Source: Octopus vulgaris
Taxonomy: Eukaryota
Reading direction: 5' to 3'
Assembly (NCBI GenBank): GCA_951406725.2
Contig: OX597827.1
Span: 58,466,001-58,530,000, forward strand
DNA length: 64,000 nt
Every line of letters begins with the position of its first letter. Positions within the stretch are counted from its first letter, which is position 1. The translations under genes and the position numbers were made by a program. The notes beneath the pieces were generated by a model. The model worked only from the letters and a program-made list of their open reading frames with translations. It did no database searches and was not told where the DNA came from. Shown piece by piece: positions 30,848 through 50,410 of the stretch.

Positions 30848-31988
30848 CTGAAATAAAGATAAATAAATTGTATGTGGGATGAATTAGAAGTGGTGAAATG
30901 TTATGCATAGTGTTGTGATGAGAAATGGTTACCGAGAATTATTTTTATTCAACACAAACAATGAACTACAGTATTTAAAGAACATTTATTTCAAAAGGCT
31001 GGCTGTCAACCTTCAACCAAAATATGCCATAAGTTATCAGGACCAGATATTGACTTCTTGTCCTCCACAGTACAAGCGTTAAGGTTGCAACCAATGGTGA
31101 AAAGGATTTGGCCTGCCAGGGTCCTGTGCTGGTGCCATGAAAAAAAGGCACCAGTTAAAAGCACCCAGCACACACTGTATAGTGGTTGGCATTAGGAAGG
31201 GCATCCAGCTGTACAAGCCAAACAAAATCAGACTGGAGCCTGGTGCAGCCCTTTGGCTTGCCAGCTCTGGTCAAACTGTCCAACCCATGTCAGCATTTGT
31301 TTATAAAAACATTTGTAACATCAATTAAATTGTGTGAGTGTGTGTATGTATACACACACACAATTGACTGCCATGAAGTTCCTGTCTACCAAATTTTATC
31401 CACAAGTTACTGTTCAAGCTTAGGCTGTGGGTCAAAAACATTCACCCAAGGTGCCATGCAATGGGGTACTTCTTAACCTAACAGTCATACTTGCACCTTA
31501 ACAATACAAACATTATATCCCTCTACATTGCTCCTATCTTTGCAAGTTTTCATTATCACATTTGAGTTCATATAAGAAGCATTATTTTTCAAAAACAAAA
31601 AAGTCTCCAAAAGATCATTCCAGGTCCTATATGCAAAGTATCCCTCCCACATAAGCTTTAATGCATTAAAATCCCCTTTTTTTGCCCAAATATGCACTAC
31701 TGAAATTAGGGTGCATCTAATATGTCCATATGTTTTTTATGCCAACCTATATGGTAGTTATGGATAATATCCATTTTTCTCAGACACAAGGATAAACAAA
31801 AAAAAAAAAAAAACCCAGAGAAAATAAATGGAAAATTTCATAAAGAACCAGGGAGATTCATATAACTTTACGGAAATAAAAGCTAAAACAATAAGTGAAT
31901 AAAAAATATATATCACCAACATCAATGCCAACAGATAAGAGCTTACAAGATGACTTCACAACCAAATCAGTTTTAAGAGACTTCTTAC

Positions 31989-32275
31989 CTTTCTGATTGT
32001 ATCAGTAGCACTTATAAACTTGTTATAATTTTCATACACCAGGGTCTGCATTTCACTGTCCAGAGCACGGATTTGACGGACTACATCAGTCTCTCTGTCC
32101 ATGAGCTCAGTCAGAGACTTCTCTCGGATAAGCTTGTTAAGGAATATATCATGCTTAAAATGGGCACCGTCAATGTCACATGGGTCGACGGTTGTCATAC
32201 CTGGTTTCTCTTCGTCTATTCCGTAATACATTTTCAACATTCCTCTGCTCTTACGGCGCATATCATCCGTCTCAT
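31989..32275 (-). CDS. VPS51: VPS51 exon 2 (N-terminal Vps51 domain)
   Basis: cag acceptor and gtaag donor. Encodes [18 protein letters not shown]...[30 protein letters not shown], the recognisable Vps51 signature. Confidence 0.97.
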
Positions 32276-33624
32276 CTGTCAATAAAATATACATATATTT
32301 TTTAAACAGTTTTAATTCCATTTATATGTATGTTAAAAGAGAATGTTTGCTATGGTGTATCATTTATTCTTCTATTCGTTTCAGTCATTGGGTTGCAGTC
32401 AAATTGGGCAACACTCCAAAGGAAGGGTTTAGTTGATCAAATTGGCCCCAGTAATTGCTTTAAATCTTCTATCAGTCTCTTTGAGCTGAATCACTAAGTT
32501 ATGGAGATATAAAGGAACCACCAACAGTTGTAAAGCAGTGAGAGACACATATACACACACAAGCTTCTAAATAAAAATCATTCACAAGACAGTGGTCAAA
32601 CTAGGGTTATAGTAGAAGACATTTGTCCAAGGTGCCACACAGTGGGACTGAACTTGAAACCACATGGTTGTGAAGAAAACTTCTTAACCACACAGCCATG
32701 GCTGTCTGTTTATTTGTTGCGTGCTGAATTCCTATTTATACCACATTAACCTTTTTGCCTTGTGGAGGCACATGGCCTAGTGGTTAGAGCAGCGGACTCG
32801 TGGTCGAGGTATCACAGGTTTGAATCTCAGACCGGGTGATGTGTGTGTGTATGAGCGAAACACCTAAGCTCCATGCGGCTCCGGCAGAAGGTAATGGCAA
32901 ACTTCTGCTGACTCTTTCGCCACAACTTTCTTTCACTCTTTCCTCCTGCATCTTGCAACTCACCTGCGACGGACCAGCGTCCTATCCAGGTGGGGAACCT
33001 ATATGCCAAGGAAACCGGGAAACCGGCCCTTATGAGCCAGGCATGGCTCAAGAAGGAACAAACAAACCCATTTGCCTTAATGTTGAAATACTGCAATGCT
33101 TTTTATTTTCTTTTTTATTTCCACTTTAGCATTCAGATTACTCTGTCAAATGTAATATTTATTTCTTCACATCATCATTTTGAATAAATAATGTATTATC
33201 TTGTGATTTTGAGATTTTGATAATGTGGTTGTTTATTTTCTTACAATGACATTGTAGGGCAGGTGTGATAGGCTAAGTCTGTCCGGTAGAATATTTGGGC
33301 CAGATATGACCAAATTTTCATACAGCCATAGGTCAGATAAATTACTGAACCAATTATTTTTCTTCTTCAGTTCGATGTTCTTCTTATCACCAACCACTCA
33401 ACCATGAATTAAAATGAAACCCATTTCCACACGAAGAATGTGTCTAGGGCACAACATAACGACTGTAGTAGTTAGGTGTAAACCTGTGATCTGTGTGGTC
33501 AGCCATCTATGAATCATACTTAATGTAAATACCTAATTAAAGGGCAATTTACTGCAGTGTTCATTCAGAGATAACATTTCATATCGATGTGGTTTGCTTA
33601 ACCCTTTAGCATTGAAACTGTCTC

Positions 33625-37485: not shown

Positions 37486-37504
37486 CTCCTGGTGTCGACG
37501 CCAT
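37486..37504 (-). CDS. VPS51: VPS51 coding exon 1 (MASTPG, phase 1)
   Basis: Minus strand reads aaaagATGGCGTCGACACCAGGAG|gtaag. Good start context and canonical donor. The trailing G joins AT of the next exon to give GAT, keeping frame. Confidence 0.8.
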
Positions 37505-37746
37505 CTTTTTAATCATAAGGCTCCTTACGATATAAAATTTACAAACAAAATTAGTGAAAATATTTAATAACAACTAAAGCACATTTAAAAATATTTATTA
37601 ATTTTCGTAACAACGAAATTAAAATACTATCATTAATTAATGAAATTAATTGACATCAATAAACTTTACAATAACACATAATCTTTCTAAGCGGTTCATA
37701 TCATTCGCCATTTGTGACATCAGTGAAAAGGAAAGTTCTGTCATCG
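37499..37746. promoter_or_regulatory. Bidirectional promoter region between VPS51 and DCTN1, with two YY1-like motifs
   Basis: VPS51 ATG at 37504 (-) and a plus-strand donor CG|gtaagc at 37746. CGCCATCTT at 37499-37507 overlaps the ATG, and CGCCATTT lies at 37706-37713. CpG is visibly more frequent from about 36.4 to 39.2 kb than in the introns. Confidence 0.7.
37690..37746 (+). other. DCTN1: Probable non-coding first exon of DCTN1 (start approximate)
   Basis: Strong donor TCG|gtaagc followed by T-rich intron-like sequence, directly opposite the VPS51 start; no ATG in the exon. Confidence 0.55.
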
Positions 37747-38031
37747 GTAAGCCTTTTTTTTATTTAGATTTGCTCTGCTTTTCATTCTTTTCCTTTTGTA
37801 ATATATTTACATATCCAAAGATATGAAGTCTATTTTCTTAAAAACTAATGCCTATTTGCATATAAATAGTTATAGACAGACTATTTGCAGACGGTAAGTT
37901 TATAAATAAATAAGGTTGACGCAACAGATACCTTCCATCTATGCAGGCTTTAGTTAATTACGGTTAACACATACACCCGATTTATATACGTTTGTACATA
38001 TTTATTGAAACCACATTTTTTTTTATTCATC

Positions 38032-38239
38032 ATGTCTGCTCCCCAAAAAGCACCCGATGAATCTTTAGATGCTGCTCCTTCACAGATTCCCGTACATAAA
38101 AGCCCTCGACCAAAAACTGGTTCCTTTATAGCGAGGCGATGTCTTTCTTTATCTGCCCTACCCACGTATAAACGATCCCCGTCTGCTACATTTCGATCCC
38201 CAACTTCTCAAGAAAAAGTAAGATTGCACAATTTCCGAG
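38032..38239 (+). CDS. DCTN1: Candidate alternative first coding exon of DCTN1 (N-terminal extension with SxIP motif)
   Basis: ATG at 38032, 69 open codons plus G, donor GAG|gtgagc (phase 1). Joins the acceptor at 42938 in frame (G+CC ATT AAA ATT CCG AAG ATG). Confidence 0.55.
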
Positions 38240-41030
38240 GTGAGCTGAATTTCCCGAACCGTTGATCCGTCGTTATTATCATTCGATTTTCATCCCCCAT
38301 ACTTGCAGCATATATGACTCAGGATAATTGTAACGATTTAATTCTTTCGTTTTAACCCCATTCGTATTCAAGATACATTATAAAGAATATAAATTAATCC
38401 CGATAACTGACAGGTCATTTATTCTATCGACACCAAAAAGAGAAAAAGCAAAGTTGGCCCCTGCTTGAATTGAACTCGGAACGTAGAAGGCCGTAACAAA
38501 ATACTACTCCTGGAATTTATAAAAATCTCGACACATCCTCCCCTAATTTTTGCTTTGATTTCTCATTTCGACTAACTTCTCACTAAAATTTAGTCGAATT
38601 TGCATTTTAGAATATGACTAATTAAACGCCTTTAATTAACCCCCTTCCTCCCTATTTTGATGCTATGCATTCTAAAAATTTGACTTTTATTGCTTCATCT
38701 CAACATATGCGTTTACTATGTCACCCTGTTATTATTTTTAATTTTTCTTGTTTCTTATCTTAAACGTAGAGTCTATTAGTACTATCAAATTTGATATTTC
38801 GGCAACGCAGAATTGCTACCAACTTTCATTCATCAATTCTCGATGAGCGACCTTTACATGGTCACTCAACAGACAAGAAATATTAGTCAGACCGTCAAAT
38901 ATTGTTTTGAAAAGAAAACACTTTAGATAACGTACTCCGATATGCTGTTGTGGTGGGGTGTGGGTGTGAAAAAAATAAGACAGGCTGGTCATAAACGGAA
39001 CGACAAGGTTGATTTGGTGGGTAAACAACATACTACTCGGGGCATGAGTACTATCAAAGCGAAAACGTGTGAGCATGATCTGCTAGAAATAGCAGCCAAA
39101 CCTCCTTTATATCTTACAATAAGGACGCATTAGAAAATTTAGCCTTAGATACACCGCTTGAAAAAGCCCACTCATATAAAATTCCGCGATTAGTTTCGAC
39201 CTGAGGCTAAACAACTCGTACATTTTATAACTACTTATTTTCATAGCTATTTATAGATTTGAACAGTATTTTATGGTTAAAAAAAAATCATTATTTAAAA
39301 TATCGATTTTTTTTTTTCCGATTAGGGATGAGGTCAACTTTGTAGAGGACGAAGTGTGATACATTGAATTAAAGTAATATTATTCTGGTTGCTTAATAAC
39401 CCTGTTGAGAGTTGAACTCTGGTTTGAGGTTCTGAATAATTAAATAATTTACTGTAAAACGTCCAGTCTGAACCCTCTCCCCTCACTCTCCACCTAAAAA
39501 AAAACCCAAAAAAAACCTTGAGGCAATATCACTGTCCTACTAAGATTGACGTGTTACAAATTTATTATAGATTTCTTATTTGACACATAAGACACCAATA
39601 TTTATTTCTAGATGCATAGAAGGAAATTGTATGAAGTTTATACTTATTTGTATTAAATGGCCACAATCCAAAACTGATTATCAAAGTGATAAAATTAATT
39701 TATTTGAAAGTTAATTCCATGTTTTTAGTGTCAGGGGAGAAAGGAGGGTGGTTATATTTCATTTCATTCATTAATATATCTTTGTCATCTAGATGAGAAA
39801 GTCTGGCCTTTTCAAGGCCACTTGGAGTGGGAATGTAAGAGGTTGTCTTCAACTGGAGATCAGGTCTGAATGCTTGTGGCATTGGTGTTTAACTAAAGCA
39901 TAATGAACTCTGAAAAAAAAAAAAAACTAAGAAAAAGCTGAATAATCTTGAATAGAATAAGCATGTAACTTGAACAGTTTTTTTTTTAATAAAATATTTA
40001 TTTAACATAAATCATTTTTAATGCATTATGTAGATGAGCAGAATCAATGGCAACAGACAAAATGCCTAATGGTGATTAGTTGTGTACCTTTGCTTTGCCA
40101 CAGTAAATAAAATGAGTAACAATCAAACATTGATTTCAAATTTTGGCACAAGGCCAGCAATTTCCAGAGAGAGAGAGAGGATAAGTCAATTAAATCAATC
40201 CCAGTACTCAACTGGTACTTATTTTATCAATCCCAAAGCATTTTGCCCACCATACTAATGATTTATTCATTGTAAAACTCCTCTCTTAATTTAATCAATT
40301 TCTCATTGCGATCAGTACTTACTTTCCAACTTGTATGGATGATAAAGAAAGCATATTTTTTATGAATAAGCTACATGTGACCATATAGTCTGTTAATCTT
40401 GATGATAAAACCCTTCTGCTTGAAGATTTGAAGGAAACCCAAATTATGGCCACATACCAAGTGTGAGACATGGGGTATGTGGATACACTGCAAATAGATT
40501 GTTAGCAAAGACAAAACTACATGGGTGCATCAGATCTACAACATGGTAGATTAATACATTCCACTGACAGGCTGATCACAATATAGTTCTGAGAAGGTAA
40601 AAAATCAGAATATAACAATCATGAACACTGTAATATAATGTTTGGAGGAAAGAAATATTAAGCATCTACAAGATTAGCAACAATCATCATACCACTTTGA
40701 ACAAGTCTTTGTAATCAGTGAGTATGTGGGACCTCAATGAAGAAGGGTGGAGCATTCTTTAATCAATTGATTGCGAGTAAGGATACTGTATTTTGTCATG
40801 CAATCTTAATATACTATCAAGAATATATTACAGGTTTATAAGTCAATACTGTGCCTCACTTGTAGATTATGGTTGCATAACCAAATACAGTATCCTAACC
40901 AGCTATTAATACGTACATACAAGTTACCAGGAATATGTTTATGGAAAATTGGTATACCCAGTAATGTTACACCACTATATTTGGTGGCTATTTAAGCAGT
41001 GTGTTTGCAGATGGTTAATGGGTCGGATGT

Positions 41031-41075
41031 GATGCTGATGAAGGAGCAAGAGCTCCTGAAATATGCATATACACC
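41031..41075 (+). ncRNA. Minimal type I hammerhead-like motif (intact core)
   Basis: GATG CTGATGA AGGAGC-AAGA-GCTCCT GAA ATATGCATAT A CACC. Confidence 0.65.
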
Positions 41076-41890
41076 TATTATGTATTTTGCTGGCTTCATT
41101 CGTGTTTACATTAGACATATTTCTATACAAAACACTGTAACAAATCGGTGCTCCTTCTAATTTCTATAGAAAATCTGCAAAGATAACATTAACTCTTTAA
41201 CCTTTTAGCATTCGGATTACTCAAATGTAATGCTTATTTATTCAGTCTTTTAAAGACATCATGTATTATCGCATAGCTTTGAGATTTCAATGATGTGGTT
41301 GTTTATTTGTAGAATGACATAGTGAGAGTGGTTCTTTCAATTAACTTTAAATATAACAAAGAATTTAGTAAAATAACTTAGTTGTCATTAAGCTGGTGTT
41401 AGGAACATAAATTGTGGCTAAGGTTTGGTGGAAGATTTTAATTCAAAACTTATGCAAACAAGGCATTTGTACTACAGAGCCAAGCCGGGTTGATATTGAA
41501 AGGGTTAAACATAACTAGTCTGGGACCCTTTTGATAACACCTTGTATTCATGATCATACTCTTTCATTCATTATCCAACATTCAATAGATATATATACGC
41601 AATCACACATATACACAAATATATATTTGTGAGAGAGAGAGATTTTCTATTCACTTTCAGTCTGTCTTTGATTCCACTACACTACTTGTGTACTCATAGA
41701 TCATGAATACTACATTGTATGGGGTTTCTGCCTTCTTTTCTGCATATTGAACATGGCCATTTCCCTGATGTTATCACTTCCTTGTCATCATTCCTACATA
41801 ATAAAGTAGTACAGTTTTATATTTAAGAGATGAGGAATTATGTATATTATTTACATTTGACAGATTTTTGTCCTCATCTTGTTTGTTGTT

Positions 41891-41936
41891 AACACAACAT
41901 TTTGGCTGATATGCCCTCCAGCCTTCATCAGGTGTC
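41891..41936 (-). ncRNA. Decayed minimal hammerhead-like motif in a Penelope-like repeat (about 41810-41960)
   Basis: GACAC CTGATGA A GGCTG-(10 nt)-CAGCC AAAA TG T T GTGTT. GAAA is mutated to AAAA. Confidence 0.5.
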
Positions 41937-42937
41937 TTGGGGAAATTTCAAACCTGGGTTGGTTCTCGGAACCATGTGGTTGGTAAGCAAGCTACTTACC
42001 ACACAGCCACTCCTATGCCTGGAAATGACTAATTATGTTAATATGTATACTAAAGGTTTTGCATTTTGAATATGGCATGCTTTCATCTGATCTACAAATG
42101 CAATGAACTCTCTACATTGCACTGGTTGATGATGAATACTAGTGGTTGAAATGGGGATTGTCTGAAGGATGTTTAGGGCAATGTTACTCAACATAATGTG
42201 TAGTTCGGAAATCAAGAAGTCTCTCCAGGTTGAATTACTACTTCTCCATATCGGGAGGTACTACAGACATGTGATAAGAATATTGCAGGAAAGAATTTCA
42301 AGACTGATTCTTCAAGCAGAGCCAACTGGTAGGGTGTAGACCTAGAATAAGATGGTTGGATAATATTTATAGTCTCAGTTGGCCACACTTTGGGAATCCC
42401 GCCAGAGAGTGTAATGATAGTTGCTTCTAATAGGACCCAGTGGTGGAGGTGCCTGAAGACTCCACTCTCATGACCCTCCCAGTAATAGTGGGCTGAGAAA
42501 ATGGATGGATGAATTTGAGATAAGGTGGCAGCCTGCATGACATTACAAAAAAATTTTCTCACTTGAGATGTAGGGTTTGAAGCATGTAGTTCAGTTTTAA
42601 AGATATTCAGGAATTTATTATGGGGCGATGTTGGCACCCTGACGAAGTCAAAAGATTACCCAGTAGCTCCCTTTTCAGTTTGAATATTACCCTATTAAAT
42701 ATTACGCTAGAGAAACTGGGAAACCAACCCTATGCTCTTTGTGGAGTCATGTGGACTAACTGAATATTAGTGCATTTTGAAGATTCTGATTTGGTATCAT
42801 ACACTTTTGTTCAATATCTACACGGGCTGACTTTGTACTTCTGCTCCCTTGAGAAAGGCTAAATAAAAACTGCTTGTATTATCTAATTTAGTAAGTAAAT
42901 TATTGCATTTGAGATTTTGTCTTTGTTTATATTGCAG

Positions 42938-43051
42938 CCATTAAAATTCCGAAGATGGGTGATCGGATTAAAGTTGGTACTCGAGTGGAAGTGATTGGTA
43001 AAGGAGTTTTTGGTCAAGTGGCGTACATTGGCACTACACTTTTTTCAACTG
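42938..43051 (+). CDS. DCTN1: DCTN1 (dynactin p150Glued) exon, N-half of CAP-Gly; ATG at 42955
   Basis: MGDRIKVGTRVEVIGKGVFGQVAYIGTTLFST(G) matches the p150Glued CAP-Gly start; ttgcag acceptor, gtgagt donor. Confidence 0.93.
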
Positions 43052-50294: not shown

Positions 50295-50410
50295 GGAAAT
50301 GGGTTGGAGTTGTATTAGATGAAGCGAAAGGTAAGAACAATGGAACTGTACAAGGCAAGACTTACTTTCAAAGTCCCGAAAACCATGGAATCTTTGTGCG
50401 TCAGTCACAG
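50295..50410 (+). CDS. DCTN1: DCTN1 exon, C-half of CAP-Gly
   Basis: (G)[38 protein letters not shown]; tttcag acceptor, CAG|gtacag donor; phase 1-0. Confidence 0.95.

What the first reader, a model, noticed from the sequence alone, without database searches (positions are those of the whole stretch)
38032..38239. Candidate N-terminally extended dynactin p150Glued carrying an SxIP (EB-binding) motif ahead of CAP-Gly
Seen: ATG at 38032 opens 69 codons (MSAPQKAPDESLDAAPSQIPVHKSPRPKTGSFIARRCLSLSALPTYKRSPSATFRSPTSQEKVRLHNFR) ending at a good phase-1 donor, GAG|gtgagc. The 17 nt between the acceptor at 42938 and the ATG at 42955 are open in exactly that phase (A-IKIPK-M), giving a 75-aa extension. 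It contains SQIP (38080-38091) and SALP in a basic, Ser/Pro-rich setting. Established: SxIP motifs in such a context bind EB1-family proteins, and canonical p150Glued reaches EB/CLIP-170 through its CAP-Gly domain. Inference: promoter choice could switch between ordinary p150 and one with a second, independent plus-end-tracking module. I do not know of such an isoform being described.
Basis: partly seen in the sequence, partly recalled or inferred. Interest (0 to 1): 0.75.

Follow-up and report, generated by a model that had tools for sequence, protein, structure and literature searches.

The report
Fast-evolving leader exon of octopus dynactin
The octopus gene for the motor helper dynactin p150 has a stretch that likely serves as a minor alternative first exon adding a fast-changing 75-residue basic tail; its proposed EB1-binding motif is lost in a related octopus, so it is likely not a conserved microtubule-tip-tracking switch.

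Summary
The reading frame is real: ATG 38032, 69 open codons, phase-1 donor 38239, in frame with DCTN1 exon 2. It beats chance (1.2% of intron shuffles) and has coding-like codon periodicity (0 of 2000 nulls). The same 75-residue isoform already stands in two database gene models, O. vulgaris CAI9733126.1 and O. bimaculoides XP_052828984.1. So it is likely a true alternative coding first exon. I saw no spliced read from this donor; one contig joins an upstream exon (ending 37746) straight to exon 2.

The SxIP reading is weak. SQIP and SALP both fail the published context rule. The leader differs at 19 of 69 residues, against 2 of 123 in the Ser/Pro-rich linker, while its charge is kept. The concept is also known: exon skipping creates an EB1-binding SKLP in human DCTN1, and vertebrate DCTN1 has an optional N-terminal leader. 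Verdict: a genus-level leader variant of modest interest.

The parts
37486..37504 (-). Likely first coding exon of the head-to-head neighbour VPS51 (ATG 37504, donor after 37486); it would share the promoter region with DCTN1
   Evidence: a downstream exon in 31959-32321 (-) matches PF08700 at E 2.8e-17; the link between the two exons is inferred
37723..37746 (+). 3' end of DCTN1 exon 1a, non-coding in this genome; splices to 42938; true 5' end not seen
   Evidence: GT..AG joint in one contig of run X3, 23 letters on this side; O. bimaculoides A0A0L8GSR3 and Argonauta GAB1603614.1 begin with residues that fit this exon
38032..38239 (+). Exon 1b coding part: 69 codons + 1 nt, basic and Ser/Pro-rich, likely disordered leader of p150
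   Evidence: identical to residues 1-69 of CAI9733126.1 and 50 of 69 identical to XP_052828984.1
38080..38091 (+). SQIP motif; SPFP in O. bimaculoides; fails the context rule
38152..38163 (+). SALP motif; kept in O. bimaculoides; fails the context rule
38215..38223 (+). Competing donor-like site AAA|GTAAGA after 38217; its use would put the upstream ATG out of frame with exon 2
   Evidence: use not seen
39453..39987 (+). Region where the long DCTN1 contig of a related organism (run X11) begins: a possible third 5' end
   Evidence: record 13; its joint to 42928 is not GT..AG and has 14 other letters between
42938..43051 (+). DCTN1 exon 2: 17 nt leader, main ATG 42955, start of the CAP-Gly domain
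50295..50410 (+). DCTN1 exon 3: core of CAP-Gly (GKNNG motif)
   Evidence: the rest of the gene lies beyond the window, to about G000:C14:58602845

Best explanation
The stretch 38032-38239 is an open, codon-biased frame in the first intron of octopus DCTN1 that is likely a minor alternative first exon and would add a 75-residue basic, Ser/Pro-rich, likely disordered leader ahead of the CAP-Gly domain. Transcripts from exon 1a give ordinary p150 starting at ATG 42955. Transcripts from exon 1b would give the long form. Composition and charge are kept between species while the sequence drifts. The leader therefore likely acts, if at all, by bulk properties: extra positive charge for the microtubule lattice, phosphorylation sites, or steric tuning of CAP-Gly. 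It likely does not act through a fixed SxIP site. A restricted, perhaps germ-line, promoter is my guess by analogy; I have no tissue data.
For: Shown: frame, donor and acceptor. The frame beats shuffles at 1.2%. GC at codon positions 1/2/3 is 0.51/0.58/0.26; 0 of 2000 stop-free shuffles reach this periodicity and 1.15% reach its synonymous-codon fit to the DCTN1 body. The stretch has one match in the genome by protein and one by DNA. ATG, length and frame are kept in O. bimaculoides. Two separate annotations hold the long form, and O. vulgaris holds both long (1358 aa) and short (1283 aa) forms. Drift: 19 of 69 residues differ, against 2 of 72 in CAP-Gly, 2 of 123 in the linker and 25 of 904 in the rest (Fisher 6e-8 against the linker). 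The changes are not clustered (P 0.27). K+R is 14 vs 13, D+E 4 vs 3, S+T+P 25 vs 25.
Against: No spliced form from donor 38239 was among the rows shown. Two contigs read through the donor unspliced (X3 38189-38364; X11 37486-38283), and one X3 contig joins 37746 to 42938 across the exon (the runs are only guessed to be RNA, and 15 of 116 joints were shown). All five O. sinensis RefSeq proteins listed start at the main ATG. Only 2 of 133 CAP-Gly-bearing p150 sequences examined have a leader of 60 or more residues, and both are this exon. Neutral simulation keeps the ATG and an open frame in 19-41% of runs at 8-15% divergence, so openness in two species is weak evidence. I could not see whether either gene model rests on reads. 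The bulk-charge mechanism is inference and was not tested.
Confidence: 0.55

Rival explanations
1. The stretch is promoter-proximal intron or 5' UTR with a chance or decaying open frame, which gene predictors extended to the longest reading frame; no long protein is made.
For: Only unspliced contigs were seen over the donor. Amino-acid change is at or above the rate of the flanking non-coding DNA: pN 19/153 = 12.4% against 24 of 385 = 6.2% upstream. An older O. bimaculoides model extended p150 through exon 1a with a frame that is closed in this window, so such extensions can be spurious. The O. sinensis models lack the leader.
Against: Codon periodicity was reached by 0 of 2000 nulls, with synonymous fit P 0.012. 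The frame plus donor has a chance of about 1%. The GC rise begins about at the ATG. Two pipelines chose the same exon and junction.
Confidence: 0.25
2. One reading: promoter choice adds an SxIP site (SQIP, or SALP) that binds the EB homology domain and gives p150 a second plus-end-tracking route.
For: The motifs lie in a basic Ser/Pro-rich setting. Val at +1 and Lys at +3 of SQIP match aptamer preferences (PMC3967968 passages). SALP is kept in both species. Two such motifs occur in only 1.8% of shuffles. The octopus linker motif (SGIP/TGIP) fails the context rule, so an added site could matter.
Against: SQIP is SPFP in O. bimaculoides. Both motifs lack R/K at X1-X4. SxIP alone did not suffice for binding in a large peptide screen. 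A single motif arises in 5-15% of shuffles. SALP would survive neutral drift in 44-65% of runs.
Confidence: 0.1
3. The exon is mainly regulatory. Used with donor 38217, or as a cassette after exon 1a (acceptor-like AGs at 37946 and 37953), its ATG forms an upstream frame that overlaps the main ATG out of frame and lowers p150 output; the long protein is a by-product.
For: Donor 38217 gives an out-of-frame product that runs past ATG 42955 and stops in exon 2. The upstream ATG has A at -3. The protein sequence is barely constrained.
Against: No use of 38217 or of those acceptors was seen among the rows shown. R64G in O. bimaculoides implies a weaker 38217 donor (inferred from the residue change). 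Both annotations use 38239.
Confidence: 0.1

Closest known systems
Database gene models O. vulgaris CAI9733126.1 and O. bimaculoides XP_052828984.1
   Same: The very same 75-aa extended p150; residues 1-69 of CAI9733126.1 equal the window's translation.
   Different: They are predictions with no stated function; their read support could not be seen.
Vertebrate DCTN1 start site 1 versus start site 2 (Hammesfahr and Kollmar 2012, PMC3583065)
   Same: An alternative upstream exon adds an unstructured N-terminal leader ahead of CAP-Gly; its function is stated to be unknown.
   Different: That leader is about 20 aa and conserved across vertebrates. The octopus leader is 75 aa, fast-evolving, and not similar in sequence by my searches.
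Human non-neuronal DCTN1 with cryptic SKLP (bioRxiv 10.1101/2021.09.29.462463)
   Same: An isoform choice gives p150 an SxIP-type EB1-binding motif.
   Different: That motif is made by exon skipping in the basic linker after CAP-Gly; the matching fish/amphibian/bird junction motifs pass the context rule, and the isoform was tested in cells. The octopus motif lies before CAP-Gly, fails the rule and is not conserved.
Long, testis-specific SKAP isoform (PMC4862331)
   Same: A plus-end protein with a lineage-restricted, divergent N-terminal extension from a separate start site.
   Different: An unrelated protein. There the extension reduces plus-end tracking. Testis expression of the octopus leader is untested.

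Membership tests
Dynactin p150Glued (DCTN1) | N-terminal CAP-Gly plus dynein-associated domain PF12455 | tested here: met
   P0121: PF01302 E 4e-21, PF12455 E 3e-71; colinear exons on C14
SxIP-type EB-binding +TIP motif | [ST]-x-[IL]-P core in a basic, Ser/Pro-rich region | tested here: met
   SQIP and SALP; K+R 14, S+T+P 25 of 75
SxIP-type EB-binding +TIP motif | At least one R/K at X1-X4 and no D/E at X1-X6 (Jiang 2012 rule, as quoted in PMC3649978) | tested here: not met
   Both motifs fail for lack of R/K
SxIP-type EB-binding +TIP motif | Motif conserved in orthologues | tested here: not met
   SQIP is SPFP in the one orthologue available; SALP is kept but no better than neutral expectation
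SxIP-type EB-binding +TIP motif | Binds the EB homology domain and tracks plus ends, lost on IP-to-NN | not testable with these tools
   Needs a bench assay
Alternative coding first exon | Open frame with ATG and in-phase donor, coding-like codon use | tested here: met
Alternative coding first exon | Spliced transcripts from this donor | tested here: inconclusive
   None among 15 of 116 joints shown for 4 of 24 listed runs (contigs only); two annotations use the junction
Alternative coding first exon | Purifying selection on the protein (dN/dS well below 1) | tested here: inconclusive
   pN 12.4%; synonymous changes were not seen directly; an indirect budget gives pN/pS 0.56-1.85 for flank rates of 4-8%, and no lower than 0.33
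Alternative coding first exon | Own start site and translation in vivo | not testable with these tools
   Contigs show no start sites; no ribosome or proteome data

The most novel reading that the evidence does not exclude
Octopus has a tissue-restricted, perhaps sperm-line, p150 whose 75-residue leader evolves under positive selection. In one lineage it carries a working EB-binding SQIP ahead of CAP-Gly that makes up for a weak linker motif, so promoter choice switches dynactin's plus-end behaviour in a species-specific way.
Probability: 0.08. Interest if true: 0.55.

Novelty: new variant of a known kind. Interest (0 to 1): 0.25.

Why it matters
If translated, this is a young, fast-evolving N-terminal addition to a core transport protein that is otherwise about 97% identical between the two octopus species. 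It offers a small case of how a new first exon changes an old motor regulator, and a handle on the still unexplained optional leader of vertebrate DCTN1. It does not reveal a new plus-end-tracking principle: splice-dependent SxIP gain in p150 is already described in human cells.

Tried and rejected
Run search: no listed holder is on record as RNA; this is no evidence on expression; the 38104-38304 bin had depth 0.11 in X1 and 0 in X2, which is lack of cover and not evidence. Repeats in intron 1 crowded the tables, so most joints and loose ends were not shown.

Complex prediction of the leader (residues 5-55) with two copies of the octopus EB homology exon gave no verdict (score 0.02); it is no evidence either way.

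Searches for more orthologues of the leader found none beyond O. bimaculoides: longer proteins, 1 of 51 candidates; short proteins, none; the 50% representatives gave P0001 plus an unrelated repeat protein, P0139, rejected as a composition match. Pfam has no match to the leader. A repeat origin is not supported. A coding frame on the minus strand was rejected: each of the five other frames holds stops.

A conserved core around SALP was not significant (P 0.27). The SALP count and one residue index were script slips, corrected.

Passages of PMC7737607, PMC7927185 and bioRxiv 10.64898/2026.09.05.749416 held nothing on this isoform. Earlier findings of this scan: none returned. Nucleotide-level dN/dS and further species remain open.

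Full report
Observation. The sequence is as described. ATG 38032 opens 69 codons and one base up to the donor GAG|GTGAGC at 38239. The acceptor at 42938 and the 17 nt before ATG 42955 keep that phase, so the joined frame adds 75 residues to p150. The window is G000:C14:58466001-58530000. The DCTN1 exons run colinearly on C14 to about 58602845; the only other matches are weak ones (38-49% identity) to the N-terminal CAP-Gly region on C19 and C30, from a search that used a stricter first look. The candidate stretch has one match by protein and one by DNA.

Is the frame coding? Likely yes. In 1000 block-wise dinucleotide shuffles of intron 1, a donor with such a frame arose in 1.2%, or 0.3% with G at -1. 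Three of 223 donor-like sites in the window have one, this site included. GC at codon positions 1/2/3 is 0.51/0.58/0.26. None of 2000 stop-free shuffles reached that periodicity, and 1.15% reached its fit to DCTN1's own synonymous codon use, built from 1282 of 1283 codons. The product is already in databases. O. vulgaris CAI9733126.1 (1358 aa) is the long form, with CAI9733127.1 (1283 aa) the short form, and O. bimaculoides XP_052828984.1 has the orthologous leader at the same length. The O. vulgaris genome paper says alternative forms were added by PASA updates from RNA-seq and Iso-Seq (PMC10700109, passages). That these records come from that annotation is my inference, and I could not see the evidence for this exon. 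The five O. sinensis RefSeq proteins listed all start at the main ATG.

Transcript evidence. I laid 4 of 24 listed runs, all assembled contigs only guessed to be RNA. One contig of X3 joins 37746 to 42938 by a GT..AG intron and so skips the candidate exon. Exon 1a, ending at 37746, has no open in-frame ATG here and faces VPS51 on the other strand. Two contigs cross donor 38239 unspliced (X3 38189-38364; X11 37486-38283). No 38239^42938 joint was among the 15 of 116 joints shown. Contigs drop rare forms, so splicing from this donor is neither shown nor excluded.

Evolution. Between the two species the leader differs at 19 of 69 residues, each needing one base change. CAP-Gly differs at 2 of 72, the Ser/Pro-rich linker at 2 of 123 and the rest at 25 of 904 aligned residues (Fisher 6e-8 against the linker). 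pN is 19/153 = 12.4%. Run X11 agrees with the O. bimaculoides record A0A0L8GSR3 at 3 of 4 informative places in exon 1a, so I used it as a rough stand-in. It differs from the window at 24 of 385 upstream non-coding bases (6.2%) and at 63 places over 37486-38283. An indirect budget then gives pN/pS of 0.56-1.85 for flank rates of 4-8%, and no lower than 0.33; synonymous changes were not seen directly. Changes are spread evenly (P 0.27), while charge and Ser/Thr/Pro content are kept. Under neutral drift at 8-15% the ATG and open frame survive in 19-41% of runs, so two open frames alone prove little. Only 2 of 133 CAP-Gly-bearing p150 sequences examined (drawn from the best 120 of 564 hits plus cluster members) have a leader of 60 or more residues, and both are this exon.

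The motif. SALP is kept, as it would be in 44-65% of neutral runs. Both fail the rule that X1-X4 hold an R or K (Jiang 2012 as quoted in PMC3649978, passages; tested; the original was not read). One Sx[IL]P arises in 15% of stop-free shuffles. A large screen found SxIP alone insufficient for EB1 binding (PMC3967968, passages). In the motif's favour, that screen prefers Val at +1 and, for human EB1, Lys at +3, which SQIP has. Two motifs together occur in only 1.8% of shuffles.

Mechanism. Shown: an in-frame upstream exon with coding-like codon use, a transcript form that skips it, fast amino-acid change, kept charge and a non-conserved SQIP. Inferred: exon 1b is a minor first exon whose use yields long p150, and the leader is disordered and acts by bulk charge or steric effect on CAP-Gly. 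The number of basic residues near CAP-Gly is described as tuning how dynactin slides on microtubules (PMC3583065, section 6 part 1 of 2). Guessed: germ-line expression, by analogy with long SKAP, a divergent testis-only N-terminal extension that lowers plus-end tracking (PMC4862331, passages). I put this reading at 0.55, a non-translated or annotation artefact at 0.25, the SxIP switch at 0.10 and an upstream-ORF regulator at 0.10.

Comparison with what is known. Vertebrate DCTN1 has start sites in exon 1 and exon 2 that differ by an unstructured leader of about 20 residues of unknown function; that paper found no alternative forms outside vertebrates. In human non-neuronal DCTN1, exon skipping creates an SKLP motif said to be required for EB1 binding (bioRxiv 10.1101/2021.09.29.462463, passages; its supplementary figure S3, which holds the data, could not be seen). 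The same junction motif appears among my vertebrate hits and passes the rule. Ordinary mollusc p150 linkers are enriched in such motifs: 45 against 12.1 expected in 28 proteins. So an SxIP route for p150 is known and would not need this exon. I found no paper on the octopus leader. The search dynactin + octopus + isoform listed 6 papers, none on it by title, one opened; some searches were read as listings apart from the papers named. The library lacks most subscription journals.

Verdict. Observation confirmed; interpretation partly supported. This is a likely real, already annotated, fast-evolving leader exon, so far seen only in Octopus. The SxIP module is not supported. New variant of a known kind; interest 0.25.

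Noticed in passing
p150 linker after CAP-Gly in proteins; in this genome SGIP at G000:C14:58536422 (L002:1639): Ordinary mollusc p150 linkers are rich in [ST]x[IL]P. There are 45 motifs in 28 chosen mollusc proteins (28 of 133, about one per genus, one unnamed) against a shuffled mean of 12.1 (max 21 of 300). 20 pass the context rule against 3.1 (max 9), and 14 of 28 proteins have a passing motif. Related species are not independent. This suggests SxIP-type EB binding by the p150 linker may be widespread beyond vertebrates, and it is a better lead than the exon itself.
   Followed up: partly
window 37486-37504 (-) and 31959-32321 (-): VPS51 lies head to head with DCTN1; its likely ATG is about 240 nt from the end of DCTN1 exon 1a.
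   Followed up: partly
window 39453-39987 and 42928: In run X11 the long DCTN1 contig begins near 39453 and passes to 42928 by a non-GT..AG joint. That organism may lack about 2.9 kb of the intron and use a third 5' end (inferred).
   Followed up: no
window 37640-37746: An ATG at 37640 is closed by a stop here, but in O. bimaculoides A0A0L8GSR3 the matching frame is open and annotated as a 41-aa leader: a likely spurious extension through exon 1a.
   Followed up: partly
P0137 (unnamed Logan protein, cluster of P0004): One of 12 members of a more distant cephalopod-like p150 cluster has an 11-residue basic leader before the main Met, so in-frame upstream starts may recur in cephalopods.
   Followed up: no
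window 50396-50410 and P0124/P0001: O. sinensis and O. bimaculoides models carry a 6-residue insert right after CAP-Gly that the O. vulgaris models lack: a likely micro-exon or alternative splice site.
   Followed up: no
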